Position numbers and translations under genes: made by a program. The notes under the pieces were generated by a model. That model searched no databases. It was given only the letters and a program-made list of their open reading frames with translations, and had not been told where the DNA came from. Positions 12,980-46,706 of a DNA stretch of 64,000 bases are shown piece after piece. This stretch comes from Squalus acanthias (taxonomy: Eukaryota). Positions within the stretch are counted from its first letter, which is position 1. Every line of letters starts with the position of its first letter. Location: assembly GCA_030390025.1 (NCBI GenBank), contig CM059432.1:21206001-21270000 (forward strand). Reading direction: 5' to 3'.

Positions 12980-15900
12980 TCCTCCCAATCGTAACATCCC
13001 TCCCTCCTCCCAATCGTTACATCCCTCCCTCCTCCCGATCGCAGTCTCTCTCCCTCCTCCCGATCGCGGGTTCTCTCTCCCTCCTCCCGATCGCGGGTTC
13101 TCTCTCCCTCCTCCCGATCGCAGTCTCTCTCCCTCCTCCCGATCGCGGGTTCTCTCTCCCTCCTCCCTATCGCGGGTTCTCTCTCCCTCCTCCCGATCGC
13201 AGTCTCTCTCCCTCCTCCCGATCGCGGGTTCTCTCTCCCTCCTCCCGATCCCGGGTTCTCTCCCTCCTCCCGATCGCAGTCTCTCTCCCTCCTCCTGATC
13301 GCGGGTTCTCTCTCCCTCCTCCCGATCCCGGGTTCTCTCTCCCTCCTCCCGATCCCGGGTTCTGTCCCTCCTCCCGATCCCGGGTTTTCTCCCTCCTCCC
13401 GATCGCGGCCTCTCTCCCTCCTCCCGATCGCGGGTTCTCTCTCCCTCCTCCCGATCCCGGGTTCTCTCTCCCTCCTCCCGATCCCGGGTTCTGTCCCTCC
13501 TCCCGATCCCGGGTTCTCTCTCCCTCCTCCCGATCCCGGGTTCTCTCTCCCTCCTCCCGATCCCGGGTTCTCTCCCTCCTCCCGATCCCGGGTTCTGTCG
13601 CTCCTCCCGATCCCGGGTTTTCTCCCTCCTCCCGATCCGGGTTTTCTCCCTCCTCCCGATCGCGGCCTCTCTCCCTCCTCCCGATCGCGGGTTCTCTCTC
13701 CCCTCCTCCCGATCCCGGGTTCTCTCTCCCTCCTCCCGATCCCGGGTTTTCTCCCTCCTCCTGATCGCGGCCTCTCTCCCTCCTCCCGATCGCGGTTTCT
13801 CTCTCCCTCCTCCCGATCCCGGGTTCTCTCTCCCTCCTCCTGATCGCGGCCTCTCTCCCTCCTCCCGATCGCGGGTTCTCTCTCCCTCCTCCCGATCCCG
13901 GGTTCTCTCTCCCTCCTCCCGATCGTGGGTTCACTCCCTCCTCCCAATCCCGGGTTCTCTCTCCCTCCTCCGATCGCGGTATCTCTCCCTCCTCCGATCC
14001 CGGGTTCTCTCTCCCTCCTCCCGATCGCGGTCTCTCTCCCTCCTCCCGATCGCGGGTTCTCTCTCCTCCTCCGATCGCGGGGTTCTCTCTCCCTCCTCCG
14101 ATCCCGGTACTCCAAGCTTCTCTCACCCTCCTCCCGATCGCAGTCTTTCTCCCTCCTCCCGAACGCAGTCTCTCTCCCTCCTCCCGATCCCGTGTTCTCT
14201 CCCTCCTCCCGATCCCGGGTTCTCTCTCCCTCCTCCCGATCGCAGTCTCTCTCCCTCCTCCCGATCGCAGTCTCTCTCCCTCCTCCCGATCACAGTCTCT
14301 CTTCCTCCTCCCGGTCCCGGGTTCTCTCCCTCCTCCCGATCCCGGGTTCTCTCCATCCTCCCGATCCCGGGTTCTCTCCCTCCTCCCGATCGCGGGTTCT
14401 CTCCCTCCTCTCGATCCCGAGTTCTCTCCCTCCTCCCGATCCCGGGTTCTCTCTCCCTCCTCCCGATCGCAGTCTCTCTCCCTCCTCCCGATCTCGGGTT
14501 CTCTCGCTCCTCCCGATCCCGGGTTCTCTCCCTCCTCCCGATCCCGGGTTCTCTCTCCCTCCTCCCGATCGCAGTCTCTCTCCCTCCTCCCGATCGCGGG
14601 TTCTCTCTCCCTCCTCCTGATCGCAGTCTCTCTCCCTCCTCCCGATCCCGGGTTCTCTCCCTCCTCCCGATCGCGGGTTCTCTCTCCCTCCTCCCGATCG
14701 CGGGTTCTCTCTCCCTCCTCCCGATTCCGGGTTCTCTCTCCCTCCTCCCGATCGCGGGTTCTCTCTCTTCTCCTCCCGATCGCGGGTTCTCTCCCTCCTC
14801 CCGATCCCGGGTTCTCTCTCCCTCCTCCCGATCCCGGGTTCTCTCTCCCTCCTCCTGATCGCGGGTTCTCTCTCCCTCCTCCCGATCGCAGTCTCTCTCC
14901 CTCCTCCCGATCGCGGGTTCTCTCCCTCCTCCCGATCCCGGGTTCTCTCTCCCTCCTCCCGATCCCGGTTTCTCTCTCCCTCCTCCTGATCCCGGGTTCT
15001 CTCTCCCTCCTCCCGATCCCGGGTTCTCTCCCTCCTCCCGATCCCGGGTTCTCTCTCCCTCCTCCCGATCGCAGTCTCTCTCCCTCCTCCCGATCCCGGG
15101 TTCTCTCTCCCTCCTCCCGATCGCGGGTTCTCTCCCTCCTCCCGATCCCGGGTTCTCTCTCCCTCCTCCCGATCCCGGGTTCTCTCCCTCCTCCCGATCG
15201 CGGGTTCTCTCTCCCTCCTCCCGATCGCGGGTTCTCTCCCTCCTCCCGATCCCGGGTTCTCTCTCCCTCCTCCCGATCCCGGGTTCTCTCCCTCCTCCCG
15301 ATCCCGGGTTCTCTCCCTCCTCCCGATCCCGGGTTCTCTCCCTCCTCCCGATCCCGGGTTCTCTCTCCCTCCTCCTGATCGCAGCCTCTCTCCCTCCTCC
15401 CGATCGCGGGTTCTCTCCCTCCTCCCGATCCCGGGTTCTCTCTCCCTCCTCCCAATCCCGGGTTCTCTCCCTCCTCCCGATCCCGGGTTCTCTCCCTCCT
15501 CCCGATCCCGGGTTCTCTCCCTCCTCCCGATCCCGGGTTCTCTCCCTCCTCCCGATCCCGGGTTCTCTCTCCCTCCTCCCGATCCCGGGTTCTCTCTCCC
15601 TCCTCCCGATCGCAGTCTCTCTCCCTCCTCCCGATCGCGGTCTTTCTCCCTCCTCCTGATCGCGGGTTCTCTCTCCCTCCTCCCGATCGCGGGTTCTCTC
15701 TTCCTCCTCCCGATCGCGGGTTCTCTCTCCCTCCTCCCGATCGCAGCCTCTCTCCCTCCTCCCGATCACGTGTTCTCTCCCTCCTCCCGATCGCGTGTTA
15801 TCTCTCTCCTCCCAATCGCGTGTTCTCTCCCGCCTCCCGATCCCGGATTCTCTCCCTCCTCCCGATCGCGGGGTCTCTCTCCCTCCTCCCGATCGCGTGT

Positions 15901-18900
15901 TCTCTCCCTCCTCCCGATCGCGGGTTCTCTCTCCATCCTCCTGATCGCGGGTTCTCTCTCCCTCCTCCCGATCGCGGGTTCTCTCCCTCCTCCCGATCGC
16001 AGTCTCTCTCCCTCCTCCCGATCGCAGTCTCTCTCCCTCCTCCCGATCACAGTCTCTCTTCCTCCTCCCGGTCCCGGGTTCTCTCCCTCCTCCCGATCCC
16101 GGGTTCTCTCCATCCTCCCGATCCCGGGTTCTCTCCCTCCTCCCGATCGCGGGTTCTCTCCCTCCTCTCGATCCCGAGTTCTCTCCCTCCTCCCGATCCC
16201 GGGTTCTCTCTCCCTCCTCCCGATCGCAGTCTCTCTCCCTCCTCCCGATCTCGGGTTCTCTCGCTCCTCCCGATCCCGGGTTCTCTCCCTCCTCCCGATC
16301 CCGGGTTCTCTCTCCCTCCTCCCGATCGCAGTCTCTCTCCCTCCTCCCGATCGCGGGTTCTCTCTCCCTCCTCCTGATCGCAGTCTCTCTCCCTCCTCCC
16401 GATCCCGGGTTCTCTCCCTCCTCCCGATCGCGGGTTCTCTCTCCCTCCTCCCGATCGCGGGTTCTCTCTCCCTCCTCCCGATTCCGGGTTCTCTCTCCCT
16501 CCTCCCGATCGCGGGTTCTCTCTCTTCTCCTCCCGATCGCGGGTTCTCTCCCTCCTCCCGATCCCGGGTTCTCTCTCCCTCCTCCCGATCCCGGGTTCTC
16601 TCTCCCTCCTCCTGATCGCGGGTTCTCTCTCCCTCCTCCCGATCGCAGTCTCTCTCCCTCCTCCCGATCGCGGGTTCTCTCCCTCCTCCCGATCCCGGGT
16701 TCTCTCTCCCTCCTCCCGATCCCGGTTTCTCTCTCCCTCCTCCTGATCCCGGGTTCTCTCTCCCTCCTCCCGATCCCGGGTTCTCTCCCTCCTCCCGATC
16801 CCGGGTTCTCTCTCCCTCCTCCCGATCGCAGTCTCTCTCCCTCCTCCCGATCCCGGGTTCTCTCTCCCTCCTCCCGATCGCGGGTTCTCTCCCTCCTCCC
16901 GATCCCGGGTTCTCTCTCCCTCCTCCCGATCCCGGGTTCTCTCCCTCCTCCCGATCGCGGGTTCTCTCTCCCTCCTCCCGATCGCGGGTTCTCTCCCTCC
17001 TCCCGATCCCGGGTTCTCTCTCCCTCCTCCCAATCCCGGGTTCTCTCCCTCCTCCCGATCCCGGGTTCTCTCCCTCCTCCCGATCCCGGGTTCTCTCCCT
17101 CCTCCCGATCCCGGGTTCTCTCTCCCTCCTCCTGATCGCAGCCTCTCTCCCTCCTCCCGATCGCGGGTTCTCTCCCTCCTCCCGATCCCGGGTTCTCTCT
17201 CCCTCCTCCCAATCCCGGGTTCTCTCCCTCCTCCCGATCCCGGGTTCTCTCCCTCCTCCCGATCCCGGGTTCTCTCCCTCCTCCCGATCCCGGGTTCTCT
17301 CCCTCCTCCCGATCCCGGGTACTCTCTCCCTCCTCCCGATCCCGGGTTCTCTCTCCCTCCTCCCGATCGCAGTCTCTCTCCCTCCTCCCGATCGCGGTCT
17401 TTCTCCCTCCTCCTGATCGCGGGTTCTCTCTCCCTCCTCCCGATCGCGGGTTCTCTCTTCCTCCTCCCGATCGCGGGTTCTCTCTCCCTCCTCCCGATCG
17501 CAGCCTCTCTCCCTCCTCCCGATCACGTGTTCTCTCCCTCCTCCCGATCGCGTGTTATCTCTCTCCTCCCGATCGCGTGTTCTCTCCCGCCTCCCGATCC
17601 CGGATTCTCTCCCTCCTCCCGATCGCGGGGTCTCTCTCCCTCCTCCCGATCGCGTGTTCTCTCCCTCCTCCCGATCGCGGGTTCTCTCTCCATCCTCCTG
17701 ATCGCGGGTTCTCTCTCCCTCCTCCCGATCGCGGGTTCTCTCCCTCCTCCCGATCGCGGGTTCTCTCTCCCTCCTACCGATCACAGTCTCTCTCCCTCCT
17801 CCCGATCCCGGGTTCTCTCCCTCCTCCCGATCGCGGGTTCTCTCCCTCCTCCCGATCGCGGGTTCTCTCCCTCCTCCCGATCCCGGGTTCTCTCTCCCTC
17901 CTCCCGGTCCCGGGTTCTCTCTCCCTCCTCCCGATCGCAGTCTCTCTCCCTCCTCCCGATCGCGGGGTCTCTCTCCCTCCTCCCGATCGCGGGTTCTCTC
18001 TCCCTCCTCCCGATCGCAGCCTCTCTCCCTCCTCCCGATCGCGTGTTCTCTCCCTCCTCCCGATCGCGTGTTCTCTCCCTCCTCCCGATCGCGTGTTCTC
18101 TCCCTCCTCCCGATCGCGTGTTCTCTCCCTCCTCCCGATCCCGGGTTCTCTCTCCCTCCTCCCGATCCCGGGTTCTCTCTCCCTCCTCCCGATCGCGTGT
18201 TCTCTCCCTCCTCCCGATCGCAGTCTCTCTCCCTCCTCCCGATCACAGTCTCTCTCCCTCCTCCCGATCCCGGGTTCTCTCCCTCCTCCTGATCGCAGTC
18301 TCTCTCCCTCCTACCGATCACAATCTCTCTCCCTCCTCCCGATCCCGGGTTCTCTCCCTCCTCCCGATCGCAGTCTCTCTCCCTCCTCCTGATCGCGGGT
18401 TCTCTCTCCCTCCTCCCGATCCCGGGTTCTCTCTCCCTCCTCCCGATCCCGGGTTCTCTCCCTCCTCCCGATCGCGGCCTCTCTCCCTCCTCCCGATCGC
18501 GGGTTCTCTCTCCCTCCTCCCGATCCCGGGTTCTCTCTCCCTCCTCCCGATCCCGGGTTCTGTCCCTCCTCCCGATCCCGGGTTTTCTCCCTCCTCCCGA
18601 TCGCGGCCTCTCTCCCTCCTCCCGATCGCGGTTTCTCTCTCCCTCCTCCCGATCCCGGGTTCTCTCTCCCTCCTCCCGATCGCGGCCTCACTCCCTCCTC
18701 CCGATCGCGGGTTCTCTCTCCCTCCTCCCGATCCCGGGTTCTCTCTCCCTCCTCCCGATCGTGGGTTCTCTCCCTCCTCCCGATCCCGGGTTCTCTCTCC
18801 CTCCTCCCGATCGCGGTATCTCTCCCTCCTCCCGATCCCGGGTTCTCTCTCCCTCCTCCCGATCGCGGTCTCTCTCCCTCCTCCCGATCGCGGGTTCTCT

Positions 18901-21900
18901 CTCCCTCCTCCCGATCCCGGGTTCTCTCCCTCCTCCCGATCGCAGTCTCTCTCCCTCCACCCAATCGCGGGTTCTCTCACCCTCCTCCCGATCGCAGTCT
19001 TTCTCCCTCCTCCCGATCGCAGTCTCTCTCCCTCCTCCCGATCCCGTGTTCTCTCCCTCCTCCCGATCCCGGGTTCTCTCTCCCTCCTCCCGATCGCAGT
19101 CTCTCTCCCTCCTCCCGATCGCAGTCTCTCTCCCTCCTCCCGATCACAGTCTCTCTTCCTCCTCCCGGTCCCGGGTTCTCTCCCTCCTCCCGATCCCGGG
19201 TTCTCTCCATCCTCCCGATCCCGGGTTCTCTCCCTCCTCCCGATCGCGGGTTCTCTCCCTCCTCTCGATCCCGAGTTCTCTCCCTCCTCCCGATCCCGGG
19301 TTCTCTCTCCCTCCTCCCGATCGCAGTCTCTCTCCCTCCTCCCGATCTCGGGTTCTCTCGCTCCTCCCGATCCCGGGTTCTCTCCCTCCTCCCGATCCCG
19401 GGTTCTCTCTCCCTCCTCCCGATCGCAGTCTCTCTCCCTCCTCCCGATCGCGGGTTCTCTCTCCCTCCTCCCGATCGCAGTCTCTCTCCCTCCTCCCGAT
19501 CCCGGGTTCTCTCCCTCCTCCCGATCGCGGGTTCTCTCTCCCTCCTCCCGATCGCGGGTTCTCTCTCCCTCCTCCCGATTCCGGGTTCTCTCTCCCTCCT
19601 CCCGATCGCGGGTTCTCTCTCTTCTCCTCCCGATCGCGGGTTCTCTCCCTCCTCCCGATCCCGGGTTCTCTCTCCCTCCTCCCGATCCCGGGTTCTCTCT
19701 CCCTCCTCCTGATCGCGGGTTCTCTCTCCCTCCTCCCGATCGCAGTCTCTCTCCCTCCTCCCGATCGCGGGTTCTCTCCCTCCTCCCGATCCCGGGTTCT
19801 CTCTCCCTCCTCCCGATCCCGGTTTCTCTCTCCCTCCTCCTGATCCCGGGTTCTCTCTCCCTCCTCCCGATCCCGGGTTCTCTCCCTCCTCCCGATCCCG
19901 GGTTCTCTCTCCCTCCTCCCGATCGCAGTCTCTCTCCCTCCTCCCGATCCCGGGTTCTCTCTCCCTCCTCCCGATCGCGGGTTCTCTCCCTCCTCCCGAT
20001 CCCGGGTTCTCTCTCCCTCCTCCCGATCCCGGGTTCTCTCCCTCCTCCCGATCGCGGGTTCTCTCTCCCTCCTCCCGATCGCGGGTTCTCTCCCTCCTCC
20101 CGATCCCGGGTTCTCTCTCCCTCCTCCCAATCCCGGGTTCTCTCCCTCCTCCCGATCCCGGGTTCTCTCCCTCCTCCCGATCCCGGGTTCTCTCCCTCCT
20201 CCCGATCCCGGGTTCTCTCTCCCTCCTCCTGATCGCAGCCTCTCTCCCTCCTCCCGATCGCGGGTTCTCTCCCTCCTCCCGATCCCGGGTTCTCTCTCCC
20301 TCCTCCCAATCCCGGGTTCTCTCCCTCCTCCCGATCCCGGGTTCTCTCCCTCCTCCCGATCCCGGGTTCTCTCCCTCCTCCCGATCCCGGGTTCTCTCCC
20401 TCCTCCCGATCCCGGGTTCTCTCTCCCTCCTCCCGATCCCGGGTTCTCTCTCCCTCCTCCTGATCCCGGGTTCTCTCTCCCTCCTCCCGATCCCGGGTTC
20501 TCTCCCTCCTCCCGATCCCGGGTTCTCTCTCCCTCCTCCCGATCGCAGTCTCTCTCCCTCCTCCCGATCCCGGGTTCTCTCTCCCTCCTCCCGATCGCGG
20601 GTTCTCTCCCTCCTCCCGATCCCGGGTTCTCTCTCCCTCCTCCCGATCCCGGGTTCTCTCCCTCCTCCCGATCGCGGGTTCTCTCTCCCTCCTCCCGATC
20701 GCGGGTTCTCTCCCTCCTCCCGATCCCGGGTTCTCTCTCCCTCCTCCCAATCCCGGGTTCTCTCCCTCCTCCCGATCCCGGGTTCTCTCCCTCCTCCCGA
20801 TCCCGGGTTCTCTCTCCCTCCTCCCGATCCCGGGTTCTCTCTCCCTCCTCCTGATCGCAGCCTCTCTCCCTCCTCCCGATCGCGGGTTCTCTCCCTCCCT
20901 CCCGATCCCGGGTTCTCTCTCCCTCCTCCCAATCCCGGGTTCTCTCCCTCCTCCCGATCCCGGGTTCTCTCCCTCCTCCCGATCCCGGGTTCTCTCCCTC
21001 CTCCCGATCCCGGGTTCTCTCCCTCCTCCCGATCCCGGGTTCTCTCTCCCTCCTCCGATCCCGGGTTCTCTCTCCCTCCTCCCGATCGCAGTCTCTCTCC
21101 CTCCTCCCGATCGCGGTCTTTCTCCCTCCTCCTGATCGCGGGTTCTCTCTCCCTCCTCCCGATCGCGGGTTCTCTCTTCCTCCTCCCGATCGCGGGTTCT
21201 CTCTCCCTCCTCCCGATCGCAGCCTCTCTCCCTCCTCCCGATCACGTGTTCTCTCCCTCCTCCCGATCGCGTGTTATCTCTCTCCTCCCGATCGCGTGTT
21301 CTCTCCCGCCTCCCGATCCCGGATTCTCTCCCTCCTCCCGATCGCGGGGTCTCTCTCCCTCCTCCCGATCGCGTGTTCTCTCCCTCCTCCCGATCGCGGG
21401 TTCTCTCTCCATCCTCCTGATCGCGGGTTCTCTCTCCCTCCTCCCGATCGCGGGTTCTCTCCCTCCTCCCGATCGCGGGTTCTCTCTCCCTCCTACCGAT
21501 CACAGTCTCTCTCCCTCCTCCCGATCCCGGGTTCTCTCCCTCCTCCCGATCGCGGGTTCTCTCCCTCCTCCCGATCGCGGGTTCTCTCCCTCCTCCCGAT
21601 CCCGGGTTCTCTCTCCCTCCTCCCGATCCCGGGTTCTCTCTCCCTCCTCCCGATCGCAGTCTCTCTCCCTCCTCCCGATCGCGGGGTCTCTCTCCCTCCT
21701 CCCGATCGCGGGTTCTCTCTCCCTCCTCCCGATCGCAGCCTCTCTCCCTCCTCCCGATCGCGTGTTCTCTCCCTCCTCCCGATCGCGTGTTCTCTCCCTC
21801 CTCCCGATCGCGTGTTCTCTCCCTCCTCCCGATCGCGTGTTCTCTCTCCCTCCTCCCAATCCCGGGTTCTCTCCCTCCTCCCGATCCCGGGTTCTCTCCC

Positions 21901-23870
21901 TCCTCCCGATCCCGGGTTCTCTCCCTCCTCCCGATCCCGGGTTCTCTCCCTCCTCCCGATCCCGGGTTCTCTCTCCCTCCTCCCGATCCCGGTTTCTCTC
22001 TCCCTCCTCCTGATCCCGGGTTCTCTCTCCCTCCTCCCGATCCCGGGTTCTCTCCCTCCTCCCGATCCCGGGTTCTCTCTCCCTCCTCCCGATCGCAGTC
22101 TCTCTCCCTCCTCCCGATCCCGGGTTCTCTCTCCCTCCTCCCGATCGCGGGTTCTCTCCCTCCTCCCGATCCCGGGTTCTCTCTCCCTCCTCCCGATCGC
22201 GGGTTCTCTCCCTCCTCCCGATCGCGGGTTCTCTCTCCCTCCTCCCGATCGCGGGTTCTCTCCCTCCTCCCGATCCCGGGTTCTCTCTCCCTCCTCCCAA
22301 TCCCGGGTTCTCTCCCTCCTCCCGATCCCGGGTTCTCTCCCTCCTCCCGATCCCGGGTTCTCTCCCTCCTCCCGATCCCGGGTTCTCTCTCCCTCCTCCT
22401 GATCGCAGCCTCTCTCCCTCCTCCCGATCGCGGGTTCTCTCCCTCCTCCCGATCCCGGGTTCTCTCTCCCTCCTCCCAATCCCGGGTTCTCTCCCTCCTC
22501 CCGATCCCGGGTTCTCTCCCTCCTCCCGATCCCGGGTTCTCTCCCTCCTCCCGATCCCGGGTTCTCTCCCTCCTCCCGATCCCGGGTTCTCTCTCCCTCC
22601 TCCCGATCCCGGGTTCTCTCTCCCTCCTCCCGATCGCAGTCTCTCTCCCTCCTCCCGATCCCGGGTTCTCTCTCCCTCCTCCCGATCCCGGGTTCTCTCT
22701 CCCTCCTCCTGATCGCGGGTTCTCTCTCCCTCCTCCCGATCGCAGTCTCTCTCCCTCCTCCCGATCGCGGGTTCTCTCCCTCCTCCCGATCCCGGGTTCT
22801 CTCTCCCTCCTCCCGATCCCGGTTTCTCTCTCCCTCCTCCCGATCGCAGTCTCTCTCCCTCCTCCCGATCGCGGTCTTTCTCCCTCCTCCTGATCGCGGG
22901 TTCTCTCTCCCTCCTCCCGATCGCGGGTTCTCTCTTCCTCCTCCCAATCGCGGGTTCTCTCTCCCTCCTCCCGATCGCAGCCTCTCTCCCTCCTCCCGAT
23001 CACGTGTTCGCTCCCTCCTCCCGATCGCGTGTTATCTCTCTCCTCCCGATCGCGTGTTCTCTCCCGCCTCCCGATCCCGGATTCTCTCCCTCCTCCCGAT
23101 CGCGGGGTCTCTCTCCCTCCTCCCGATCGCGTGTTCTCTCCCTCCTCCCGATCGCGGGTTCTCTCTCCATCCTCCTGATCGCGGGTTCTCTCTCCCTCCT
23201 CCCGATCGCGGGTTCTCTCCCTCCTCCCGATCGCGGGTTCTCTCTCCCTCCTACCGATCACAGTCTCTCTCCCTCCTCCCGATCCCGGGTTCTCTCCCTC
23301 CTCCCGATCGCGGGTTCTCTCCCTCCTCCCGATCGCGGGTTCTCTCCCTCCTCCCGATCCCGGGTTCTCTCTCCCTCCTCCCGATCCCGGGTTCTCTCTC
23401 CCTCCTCCCGATCGCAGTCTCTCTCCCTCCTCCCGATCGCGGGGTCTCTCTCCCTCCTCCCGATCGCGGGTTCTCTCTCCCTCCTCCCGATCGCAGCCTC
23501 TCTCCCTCCTCCCGATCGCGTGTTCTCTCCCTCCTCCCGATCGCGTGTTCTCTCCCTCCTCCCGATCGCGTGTTCTCTCCCTCCTCCCGATCGCGTGTTC
23601 TCTCCCTCCTCCCGATCCCGGGTTCTCTCTCCCTCCTCCCGTTCCGGGTTCTGTCCCTCCTCCCGATCCCGGGTTTTCTCCCTCCTCCCGATCGCGGCCT
23701 CTCTCCCTCCTCCCGATCGCGGGTTCTCTCTCCCTCCTCCCGATCGCAGTCTCTCTCCCTCCTCCCGATTGCGGTCTCTCTCCCTTCTCCCAATCGCGGT
23801 CTCTCTCCCTTCTCCCAATCGCAGTCTCTCTCCCTCCTCCCGATCAGGGTTCTCTCCCTGCTTCCGATTG
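12980..23870. repeat. ~10.9-kb tandem array of 22/24-bp units CCTCCTCCCGATC(C/G)CGGGTTCTCT(CT)C with variants and higher-order repeats
   Basis: Directly visible: roughly 470 units. Variant units include CGATCGCAGTCT, CGATCGCGTGTT and CGATCGCGGCCT; variant-unit blocks recur at kb spacing. Confidence 0.98.
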
Positions 23871-43582: not shown

Positions 43583-43705
43583 CATAAGAACATAAATGAA
43601 CATAAGAAATAGGAGCAGGAGTAGGCCATTTGGCCCTTCGAACCTGCTCTGCCATTCAATAAGATCATGGCTGATCTTCGACCTCAACTCCACCTTCCCA
43701 CACTA
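43583..43705 (-). mobile_element. CR1 3' tail
   Basis: cataagaaataggagcaggagtaggccatttggcccttcg...aagatcatggctgatc. Confidence 0.85.
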
Positions 43706-43965
43706 TCCCCTTCCCTCTACCAATCACTGCCCCCTACCTCGACCAATCACTGCCCCCCACCTCTATCAGTCACTGCCCCTCCCTCTACCGATCATTGCCC
43801 CCTTCCCTCTACCAATCACTGTCCCTTCCCTCTACCAATCACTGTCCCTTCCCTCTACCAATCACTGTCCCTTCCCTCTACCAATCGCTGCCCTTCCCTC
43901 TATCAATCACTGCCCTCTCCCTCTCCCAAACACTGCCCCCTACCTCTGCCAATCACTGTCCCCTC
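43706..43965. repeat. Minisatellite, ~22-23-bp unit cccttccctctaccaatcactgt (~11 copies)
   Basis: Directly visible tandem repeats, abutting a CR1 tail. Confidence 0.9.
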
Positions 43966-45059
43966 CTGATCGCTTCATCCCACAGCTGCTGACGGGGTTT
44001 TCACACGCAGCAAGTGTGAACGATGATCTAATTGAAGTTTTCAAGATCTAAATCAACCCTTCGGTGAATGTCTGGTGATTGAGGGATGTGAACCTAGAAA
44101 ATACGATTGACATTCCAAAGAGCACTTGCACTATTTGTGGGTTACAGGGAAGTAAAATTCAAAGTGTGGGATATTGCATATTCCTGTCTATTTATTTCAC
44201 ACTAACAAGTTGCTGATTTGTTTCTGCTACAGTGCTGAGGACATGCATCAGGTTAGTTAAGCTCGTTACTAAATCATAGAATTTACGGAAGGAGGCCATT
44301 TGGTCCATCATGTCTGTGCTGGTGAAATGGAGCACCGTATACCAAGGGTTACACATGCCCTCATATGAAACAGACATTGCTGCAGAGTCTGCAGACTATT
44401 TGTCTGTACTGATAGTCAAACTGAAACTTGCACTATTTTGTTCAATATGGAACTTGACTTCCGTGCTCCTCTTGCACTACAGTTGGTAAAGGAGGACCAG
44501 CAAGAGAATGTTAGGAGTACTCATTTTGTCAGGTGGCATACAAGATGCACCATCGGGTCTCACCAATATATGACACATCGGTTTAGAATTTGGTTCATGT
44601 TGGGCTGCCTGAGTAGGCCCAAGGCTCGACCAATATTGGGCTTTGGGCTTCATTTACATGAGACTGGCGCGCTGCAGACGCCTGCAGTGGATTTCAATTT
44701 TGGTCCGCTGCATCGAGCGAGGGGGCTAAGCGAGGGCTAGCAATGGTCTATGGCTCCAAGTTCAGGTGAGTATTTTTAAGAGAACGTCCCTTTTTGGTAG
44801 CGGCCTGCAGTAACGACTGCTGGTTAGATGACAAGTAGACCACCGTTTCCTCAAGCATTGCCCCCTATTTTCATATGTAAAGGGCCTAATACCTGCTTCA
44901 GGTGCAGGCACTGGATGCCTCCTTTTCTGCCTTAGCAACATGGCGGGCAGCGCACTTCCAGCACAAAATGAGCGCATGCACATTGCCAGCTATATTGGAT
45001 GCACAGGCTTCCGTTTCATACCTGAAAAACCGGCGCGACGCCATCGGGTTTCTAGGCTA

Positions 45060-45570
45060 TTATGTCTACCATCCCAGGCACAGCTATCCAGGAATGACAG
45101 GGCAGCAGTGTCTCAGAAGGCTGATGATGCGGAGATGCCGGTGTTGGACTGGGGTGGACAAAATTGAGAAGTCGCACAACACCAGGTTATAGTCCAACAG
45201 TTTTATTTGAAATCACAAGCTTTCGGAGTTATTGCTCCTTCACCCGACGAAGGAGCAATAACTCCGAAAGCTTGTGATTTCAAATAAAACTGTTGGACTA
45301 TAACCTGGTGTTGTGCGACTTCTCAGAAGGCTGAGGCTAAGGACGGAATCAATGATAGAGGTGTGCCATCTCCTTCATGAAGAACTTGCGACATCAATAC
45401 AGCATGAATACAGCATTGCACGTGGATGTCAAAGTCACCTCAGGCCTTCATTTTATGTGTCTGGCTCCTTCGATGCTCGCATTGGTAACAGCTGTAGTCA
45501 GCTATTTTGCTGTCCACAGATGTATCAAGCAGGCCACAGATGCATTAGTCAGAGGGGTCACCAATTACCA
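45060..45570 (+). pseudogene. Harbinger transposase N-terminal remnant, interrupted by a PLE insertion
   Basis: YVYHPRHSYPGMTGQQCLRRL|RLRTESMIEVCHLLHEEL...KVTSGL/FYVSGSF, homologous to 48600-48820. Confidence 0.7.
45125..45320. mobile_element. Very short Penelope-like insertion: inverted plus direct pLTR forming a hairpin, 14-bp TSD
   Basis: Perfect 77-bp inverted repeat 45165-45241/45249-45325; TSD tctcagaaggctga at 45111-45124 and 45321-45334; hammerhead-like motif at 45240-45277. Confidence 0.85.
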
Positions 45571-45859
45571 TTATCACCATGATAAGTCAACACAATGCCA
45601 ACTTTCTAATAATCTAGGGAGACCATTCATTGCACCCATTATTACCATTGGAAGCTTTGGCCTATAGCACAGGACCCCTCCATGAGGTGCTACATTCCTT
45701 CCTGCTGGGACTCCTCAGTGGCCCATTTCCTCCACTTTGCAGCAAATTGCTGCCTGCAGAAGAGTGAGAAAGGAAGTGTGAACATATGAACATACAAACA
45801 TATGAAAATAACAGGCAGGAAAAGACTATCTGGTCCATCAAGCCTGCTGCACACAGTTG

Positions 45860-46478
45860 TATTGCAAAGGGAATGGAATATAAAAGTAGGGAAGTCCTGT
45901 TACAACTGTACAGGATGTTGGTGAGACCACACCTGGAGTACTGTGTACAGTTTTGGATATACTTGCATTGGAGGCAGTTCAGAGAAGGTTCACGAGGTTG
46001 ATTCCGGAGATGAAGGGGTTGTCTTATGAAGAAAGGTTGAGCAGGTTGGGCCTATACTCATTGGAGTTTAGAAGAATGAGAGGGGATCTTATTGAAACAT
46101 ATAAGATTCTGAAAGGGCTTGACAGGGTAGATGCAGAGAGGATGTTTCCCCTAGTGGGGAAATCTAGAACTAGGGGGCATAATTTCCGAATAAGGGGGCA
46201 CCCTTATAAATCAGAAATGAGGAGGAATTTCTTCTCTCAGAGGGTCGTGAATCTTTGGAATTCTCTTCCCCAGAGAGCTGTGGAGGCTGGGTCATTGAAT
46301 ATATTTAAGGTGGAGATAGACAGATTTTTGAACGATAAGGGAGTCAAGGGTTATGGGGAGCGAGCAGGGAAGTGGAGTTGAGGCCAAGATCAGATCAGCC
46401 ATGATCTTATTGAATGGCGGAGCAGGCTCGAGGGTCCGGAGGACCTACTCCTGCTCCTACGTCTTAAGTTCTTATGTG
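45860..46478 (+). mobile_element. CR1 3' fragment, apparently inserted in an inverted CR1 tail (45780-45858, 46479-46625)
   Basis: [30 protein letters not shown]...KGYGERAGKWS plus tail; the two flanks read as one minus-strand tail. Confidence 0.88.
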
Positions 46479-46706
46479 ATGCCTGAAACATCATGATTAG
46501 AAACCTGCTACACAAAAGCAACCGTGTGATCTCCTGGGAGAGGCAAATTAGGGAAATAAAATCTGGAAAATTCCTCTCCGACCCCAATAGCTGATCACAA
46601 CTAGTCCACGAGACCTCATTGACCATGCTTATATTATCGGTTGGATTTAAGTGTACTGGGATAGATTGTTGAGATTGGAAGACAAAATGTGAAAAAAAAA
46701 CATTTA

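What the first reader, a model, noticed from the sequence alone, without database searches (positions are those of the whole stretch)
45111..45334. Perfect 77-bp hairpin: a minimal Penelope-like insertion with a hammerhead motif and a 14-bp TSD
Seen: arms 45165-45241 and 45249-45325 are exact reverse complements around a 7-nt loop. The unit is flanked by a perfect direct repeat tctcagaaggctga and splits a Harbinger transposase remnant (QCLRRL|RLR). The right arm reads tcac-CCGACGA-aggagcaataactcc-GAAAG-CTT-gtga, a minimal hammerhead with a palindromic AGCT stem III and a U-to-C core change. The inversion point lies inside the ribozyme core, and the last 5 nt of the arm (tctca) overlap the TSD. 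Known: PLEs carry minimal hammerheads and often have an inverted pLTR at the 5' end. Inference: a very recent ~200-bp non-autonomous insertion that records fold-back priming at the ribozyme and microhomology with the target. It could also yield dsRNA or a miRNA-like hairpin.
Basis: partly seen in the sequence, partly recalled or inferred. Interest (0 to 1): 0.72.

Follow-up and report, generated by a model that had tools for sequence, protein, structure and literature searches.

The report
Double-primed Penelope retrotransposon hairpin stub
This perfect DNA hairpin is a real, recent and very common dead-end insertion of a Penelope-type jumping gene, likely made when two short DNA copies of the start of its RNA were written into the two cut strands of the target and joined head to head, so it is an ordinary by-product that records how these elements probably insert.

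Summary
Real, but ordinary in this genome; this scan has noted such hairpins in many other genomes. The 77-bp arms, 14-bp duplication and split Harbinger remnant are confirmed, and two other organisms carry the empty site. The insert comes from a 3.1-kb Penelope-like element (PLE). Of 44 head-to-head pairs, 43 have exactly one tail; most have 11-15-bp duplications. The same junction occurs 1,083 times, and 2,223 loci join two arms at the 5' edge of the hammerhead, against 137 near the cut site. That edge lies 32 nt below a TATA-like box; in the window's lineage 10 of 13 one-base junctions carry a G the template lacks, likely a copied RNA cap. Simple fold-back cannot give this locus's tail plus loop direction, and some pairs have arms from different subfamilies. 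Best reading: two cDNAs primed at the two tail-boundary sites, one running off the RNA's 5' end, joined by 4-nt microhomology. The U4C core change marks a young lineage of about 1,000 copies. No RNA start was measured.

The parts
45111..45124 (+). Left copy of the 14-bp target-site duplication
   Evidence: Identical to 45321-45334. Single copy in orthologous empty sites of runs X6 and X11 and in paralogs L080, L082, L085.
45125..45164 (-). 40-nt PLE tail, inverted; in full-length copies it follows the pLTR and ends on the A of the ORF's ATG
   Evidence: 100% match to the tail of L031 and many other loci.
45165..45241 (-). Left arm: pLTR 3' part, element positions +8 to +84 (+1 = 45242); hammerhead cut short inside its core
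45238..45241 (.). 4-nt microhomology at the head-to-head junction (CTTC at -3..0 is the reverse complement of GAAG at +8..+11)
   Evidence: the same junction occurs at 1,083 places.
45238..45325 (+). Right arm: pLTR 3' part, positions -3 to +84, no tail; begins one base below the inferred RNA start (-4)
   Evidence: RNA start inferred.
45240..45277 (+). Minimal type I hammerhead with U4C core; predicted cut 45273/45274; sequestered in the 77-bp stem in a read-through RNA
   Evidence: Read from the sequence against the motif described in PMC4209133; folding. Activity not tested.
45321..45334 (+). Right copy of the duplication; its first 5 nt also match element positions +80 to +84
45013..45124 (+). 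Harbinger-type transposase remnant, left of the insert
   Evidence: BLASTP to the L091 ORF residues 25-66, E 7e-4; L091 ORF has DDE_Tnp_4.
45321..45560 (+). Harbinger-type transposase remnant, right of the insert, frameshifted further on
   Evidence: BLASTP to L091 residues 63-95, E 1e-6; 39 other genomic matches at 68-88% identity.

Best explanation
This is a recent, promoterless head-to-head insertion of two short pieces of a Penelope-like retrotransposon's 5' RNA region, likely made by two separate reverse-transcription events at one staggered cut. Inferred steps: the element's endonuclease nicks both strands 14 nt apart. One 3' end primes at the end of the tail (+124). The other pairs with 5 nt of RNA at the pLTR end (+80 to +84) and primes there. 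Because these start sites lie near the 5' end of the RNA, the reverse transcriptase runs off after about 90-130 nt at a capped start (-4), just upstream of the hammerhead. The two cDNA 3' ends anneal through CTTC/GAAG, are trimmed and filled in, giving a perfect hairpin with one tail and a 14-bp duplication. Shown: PLE source, tail asymmetry, duplication, junction clustering. The ribozyme is probably a passenger here, and the stub is unlikely to move again.
For: Parent element: direct pLTRs 3,115 nt apart around an ORF with RVT_1 (E 7e-9) and a C-terminal region whose nearest Atlas clusters carry GIY-YIG in 22-27% of members. 43 of 44 head-to-head pairs have exactly one tail: 16 of 17 among loci picked without the tail, 27 of 27 among loci picked with it, none with two. 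Duplications are 11-15 bp in 40 of 44. At the same junction the tail sits on either arm: on the +8 arm in L001, L022, on the -3 arm in L013, L029, L049, L099. Arms carry different, recurring loop II variants in L049, L055, L099, L108, L109, L116, L125, and a 10-difference block in L007. 27 of 61 short arm ends fall at -5 to +1 and none at +30 to +36. Genome-wide: 2,223 loci with both arms ending just above the core, 1,083 of the window's type, 137 near the cut site. TATATAT begins 32 nt above A(-4). In the CCGA lineage the base at -5 is mostly T (43 of 45 fetched copies; 85 non-T matches genome-wide), yet 10 of 13 one-base junctions have G (P 2e-8 at an expected share of 0.1, 1e-4 at 0.25). 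In vitro, a lizard PLE protein nicks and extends both strands, starts at two sites bounding the tail, is predicted to be a dimer, and does not need ribozyme cleavage (PMC11167929).
Against: No RNA 5' end was measured; the start site rests on junction statistics and a promoter-like motif. The genome-wide G excess (329 G against 18 T) is partly confounded, because the main CTGA subfamily has C at -5 (8,219 matches, all 100 listed are C, against 1,619 with T), so an arm one base longer gives the same G. The clean test has only 13 loci; 3 of the 10 G loci lie on small contigs that may duplicate others, and several belong to loop variants whose -5 base I did not see. 18 of 44 pairs have identical arms and most differ at 0-2 sites, which one RNA or gene conversion would also give. 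3 of 22 one-base-junction loci had no tail by my motif test. The 44 pairs are the best-scoring hits of two searches, so they are biased to the young lineage.
Confidence: 0.75

Rival explanations
1. Fold-back: one cDNA snaps back on the CTTC/GAAG mini-stem at the ribozyme and copies itself; one tail is later removed, perhaps by the endonuclease.
For: A 4-bp stem with a 7-nt loop exists at this point, and this junction is common (1,083). Identical arms in 18 of 44 pairs. PMC3846280 reads palindromic junctions as self-priming; PMC8557442 ascribes the tail to endonuclease resolution of an intermediate.
Against: At this locus the loop has the direction of the tail-less arm's cDNA, which cannot supply the tail. 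Junctions with 0 or 1 base between two arms ending at -4 leave no room for an intramolecular loop. Arms from different subfamily variants cannot come from self-copying.
Confidence: 0.1
2. Twin priming as above, but the stop near -4 is a reverse-transcriptase stall at the hammerhead's structure, or a splice or processing site, not a capped start.
For: The cluster coincides with the 5' strand of stem I. In D. virilis an intron ends at the 5' end of helix I (PMC4209133). Many arms do run past -4 (27 of 88 ends lie above -40).
Against: No AG acceptor precedes -4. The extra G in the T(-5) lineage and the TATA spacing fit a capped start. Longer arms are expected from priming at the downstream pLTR of the same RNA.
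Confidence: 0.1
3. Ribozyme cleavage sets the junctions, so the hairpins record cutting in vivo.
For: 108 loci join an arm reaching the 5' edge to one starting near +33 to +37; 51 of the 100 listed (hand count) fit a start exactly at +33.
Against: That form is explained equally by a 4-nt GTGA microhomology in the C(-5) subfamily. A neighbouring class at +27 driven by AAG microhomology is as large (58 of 100 listed of 104, hand count). Both are small beside more than 3,300 junctions at the 5' edge. This locus's junction is 25 nt or more from the cut site, and its core is U4C.
Confidence: 0.03
4. A non-autonomous mini-element (retrozyme- or MITE-like) that spreads as a hairpin unit.
For: The exact 33-nt junction occurs at 4 loci.
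Against: Those 4 differ in which arm has the tail, in outer ends and in duplications. Junctions vary base by base across thousands of loci. There is no tandem array, and the TATA region is missing from the insert.
Confidence: 0.02

Closest known systems
EN+ Penelope-like element insertions with an inverted 5'-truncated copy and a one-sided 30-40-bp tail (PMC8557442 Fig. 2 legend and text; Adineta vaga Pen2a, PMC3846280)
   Same: Head-to-head arms, tail at one end only, target-site duplication, hammerhead in the pLTR, TATA plus initiator-like TCACT in the pLTR.
   Different: This is the shortest form, with no ORF between the arms; duplication 14 bp (family mode 12-13) against 8-10 bp in the rotifer examples.
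Poseidon element of Anolis carolinensis, in vitro (PMC11167929)
   Same: Two reverse-transcription start sites bounding the tail, near the 5' end of the ORF region; both strands cut and extended; ribozyme cleavage not needed.
   Different: In the parts I read the paper does not explain inverted insertions. Here the ATG follows the tail rather than lying in stem II, and the parent has a CX4CxxC linker of Neptune type.
LINE-1 twin priming and the cap-derived extra G (PMC11702581, passages)
   Same: Second nick primes a second cDNA; discrete 12-18-bp duplications; microhomology at the inversion; extra G at full-length 5' junctions.
   Different: In L1 the inverted piece comes from a different, upstream part of the RNA and is occasional. 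Here both arms copy the same stretch from two fixed start sites, and this is the usual outcome.
Animal non-LTR retrozymes (10.64898/2026.07.22.740005; PMC7229834 listing)
   Same: Non-coding, PLE pLTR-derived, type I hammerhead.
   Different: Retrozymes are head-to-tail tandems with a complete ribozyme in each unit. This is one head-to-head pair with one complete, sequestered, U4C motif.

Membership tests
EN+ Penelope-like element (parent) | Single ORF with reverse transcriptase | tested here: met
   RVT_1 E 7.2e-9, above the cutoff, in L032; ORFs in L031-L033 are each broken by a few stops or frameshifts.
EN+ Penelope-like element (parent) | C-terminal GIY-YIG endonuclease | tested here: inconclusive
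   No Pfam, NCBIfam or PDB sequence hit. Atlas neighbours at 0.96 carry GIY-YIG in 22-27% of members, and VVY...WYIGET motifs are visible.
EN+ Penelope-like element (parent) | Direct pLTRs flanking the ORF | tested here: met
   Repeats 3,115 nt apart in L031, likewise L032, L033.
EN+ Penelope-like element (insertion) | 30-40-bp tail at one end only; inverted 5'-truncated copy | tested here: met
   40-nt tail on the left arm; 43 of 44 pairs have one tail.
EN+ Penelope-like element (insertion) | Target-site duplication | tested here: met
   Empty orthologous sites in X6 and X11; paralogs.
Neptune clade | CX2-5CxxC linker between RT and EN; placement in an RT tree | tested here: inconclusive
   CHGNLCKTC is present (motif as stated in PMC8557442); no tree was built.
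Minimal type I hammerhead | Stems I and II, bulged base after A9, palindromic 15.2-16.2 | tested here: met
   Read from the sequence; stems I and II form in the isolated motif.
Minimal type I hammerhead | Canonical CUGANGA core | tested here: not met
   U4C. 1,031 CCGA matches against 45,926 CTGA.
Minimal type I hammerhead | Self-cleavage | not testable with these tools
   Needs an assay.
Non-LTR retrozyme | Head-to-tail tandem units, each with a complete hammerhead | tested here: not met
   One head-to-head pair; the left motif lacks +1 to +7.
Harbinger transposase (host remnant) | Homology to a DDE_Tnp_4 transposase across the site | tested here: met
   only the N-terminal part is matched, through a paralog.
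miRNA precursor | Small-RNA reads with defined ends | not testable with these tools
   MIR821 match 93.5 bits against a gathering score of 249 reflects the perfect stem only.

The most novel reading that the evidence does not exclude
These hairpins are a genome-wide record of the PLE integration reaction: a dimeric enzyme runs two reverse transcriptions from the two tail-boundary sites, often on two different capped RNAs, and the cap itself is copied into the junction. A young lineage of about 1,000 copies spread with a U4C ribozyme core, a natural test of whether PLE hammerheads need to cut. This would replace the antisense self-priming explanation of inverted pLTRs.
Probability: 0.55. Interest if true: 0.6.

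Novelty: new member of a known kind. Interest (0 to 1): 0.33.

Why it matters
The locus itself is one of thousands and has no sign of function. The class bears on an open question, how PLEs make inverted ends with a single tail. The one-tail rule, discordant arms and extra G link the two start sites seen in vitro to the genomic structure, and can be counted in any assembly of this kind. The U4C lineage offers a cheap test of the ribozyme's role.

Tried and rejected
Rfam gave no hammerhead model hit. No other copy of the arm lies in the window. No RNA holder listed for the stretch, and all laid runs are contigs, so expression, RNA start and small RNAs were not tested. Polymorphism within the species is unresolved: X1 and X3 (one sample) carry the filled site, while in X5 the contigs stop at 45117 and restart at 45347 with about 55% of the run read; X7 does not reach the site. 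The 329 to 18 G excess was first read as proof of a cap, then lowered. BLAST 5' ends of +17 in L041, L068, L095, L098 are artefacts of a loop II variant; L095 and L098 are in fact of the window's junction type, so the count of ends near the 5' edge is an undercount. 14 loci were dropped as duplicates of other loci before the count of 44, and loci without a head-to-head pair were not counted. Literature searches for a prior twin-priming account found none by title, abstract or the passages read. [quoted passage not shown]

Full report
Observation. The arms, the loop ACCCGAC and the two 14-mers are exactly as described. The insert between the 14-mers is 196 nt. A 77-bp perfect stem is far beyond chance; the only Rfam match is a structural one to a plant miRNA model well under its cutoff.

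Source. The right arm has 1,471 first-look candidates in the 3.7-Gb own genome, 40 scored, many 100% identical over 84 nt. Pairs about 3.1 kb apart enclose an ORF with a reverse transcriptase (RVT_1, E 7.2e-9), a CX4CxxC linker and a C-terminal region whose nearest Atlas clusters are partly annotated GIY-YIG (direct profile searches missed it). In these copies the pLTR end (+84, with +1 = window 45242) is followed by 40 nt that end on the ATG. Window 45125-45164 is the reverse complement of those 40 nt. This is the PLE tail described in PMC8557442 and PMC3846280 (passages). So the left arm is +8 to +124 inverted, the right arm is -3 to +84, and they share CTTC/GAAG.

Target. Both flanks align end to end with the N-terminal part of a paralogous DDE_Tnp_4 transposase. 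In 3 of 19 paralog loci both flanks aligned, and in all 3 they overlap by exactly 14 nt. Single contigs from organisms B and D join 45110 directly to 45321 (X6 record 25, X11 record 9), with flanks about 3-6% different from the window. The 14-mer is therefore a true duplication, and the insert is younger than those splits. The 5-nt overlap with the arm end is at the top of a normal range: mean about 2 nt at each outer end, 5 nt at one end in 6 of 35 pairs.

The class. Among fetched loci, after dropping 14 duplicates, 44 head-to-head pairs remained; 43 have exactly one tail and 40 have 11-15-bp duplications. Of 61 arm ends within 40 nt above the motif or inside it, 27 lie at -5 to +1 and none at +30 to +36, where the ribozyme would cut (+32/+33). 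Pattern counts over the genome agree: 2,223 loci with both arms ending just above the core, 1,083 with the window's junction (4 with the exact 33-mer), 137 with both arms starting near the cut site, mostly at the AAGCTT palindrome, and two mixed classes of 104 and 108 that follow short microhomologies. About half of the listed rows of the latter fit a start exactly at the cut site but fit a GTGA microhomology equally well, so cleavage in vivo is neither shown nor excluded for the CUGA subfamilies.

Why the 5' edge. TATATAT begins 32 nt above A(-4), and similar TATA plus initiator-like motifs were noted in rotifer pLTRs (PMC3846280). One base between two arms ending at -4 is G/C in 329 and T/A in 18 places. 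That ratio is confounded, since the main subfamily has C at -5. In the CCGA lineage, where -5 is T in 43 of 45 fetched copies and non-T in only 85 places, the base is still G in 10 of 13 (binomial). An extra G at full-length 5' junctions is read as a copied cap in LINE-1 (PMC11702581, passages). I infer a capped RNA start at -4. No RNA data could test it.

Why two cDNAs. On the top strand the tailed arm reads as cDNA from the left 14-mer, but the loop is in RNA sense, so it belongs to the other arm's cDNA; that cDNA has no tail to copy. At the same junction the tail lies on either arm in different loci. Zero- and one-base loops are common. In at least 8 loci the two arms carry different recurring variants (L007, L049, L055, L099, L108, L109, L116, L125), though 18 of 44 pairs are identical. 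Both arms point as cDNA away from the 3' ends of a 14-nt staggered cut. The Anolis Poseidon protein cuts and extends both strands, starts at the two tail-boundary sites, is predicted to dimerise and works without ribozyme cleavage (PMC11167929, main text parts 1-2 of 4 read).

The ribozyme. The motif fits the minimal PLE hammerhead (PMC4209133, parts 1-2 of 4 read) except for U4C. CCGA has 1,031 matches against 45,926 for CTGA, almost all listed CCGA rows have the same next bases, and the full-length copies L031-L033 belong to it, so it is a lineage that spread with this core. U4C lowers activity in vitro yet left a viroid infectious (PMC3088659, passage), so it is not shown dead. In a read-through RNA of this locus the motif is locked in a stem of about -150 kcal/mol, and the left copy lacks its first core bases.

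Prior art. The structure is known. The double-priming account was not found in the library searches; PMC3846280 proposes antisense self-priming instead. The retrozyme preprint (part 1 of 5 read) concerns tandem units, which this is not. This scan has reached similar readings before: 485 findings in at least 40 genomes hold the search words, and the 8 shown describe the same class; a sequence look-up found nothing. I had formed my reading before that look-up; it prompted.

Verdict. A real, recent, ordinary PLE stub. Interest lies in the class as a record of mechanism, not in this locus.

Noticed in passing
window 13025-23868: A 10.8-kb tandem array of a 25-26-nt C/T-rich unit, about 420 copies at 88% identity, with strong strand skew.
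   Followed up: no
window 43707-43964: A 23-nt minisatellite, 11 copies, lying inside a CR1-like LINE 3' end (the LINE label is recalled, not tested).
   Followed up: no
window 45800-46480: A high-copy LINE-like fragment with a 163-aa open frame (L071 2070-2558), inverted relative to a similar piece at 43591-43710.
   Followed up: no
L091 398-1558: An uninterrupted 386-aa Harbinger-type transposase ORF with DDE_Tnp_4, so this old family may still have intact members.
   Followed up: partly
L031 474-505 and other loci: Hammerhead loop II varies widely among subfamilies (AATAA, AGTAA, AGCAG, AGCG, AGCCG, GATCGATAG) while stem II is kept.
   Followed up: partly
L106: One arm begins with three short repeats of its first bases before the core, which looks like repeated template jumps at the RNA's 5' end.
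   Followed up: no
L056 and L057: Two loci 1.8 Mb apart on one contig show the same insertion coordinates and arm ends, probably a segmental or assembly duplication; counted once.
   Followed up: no
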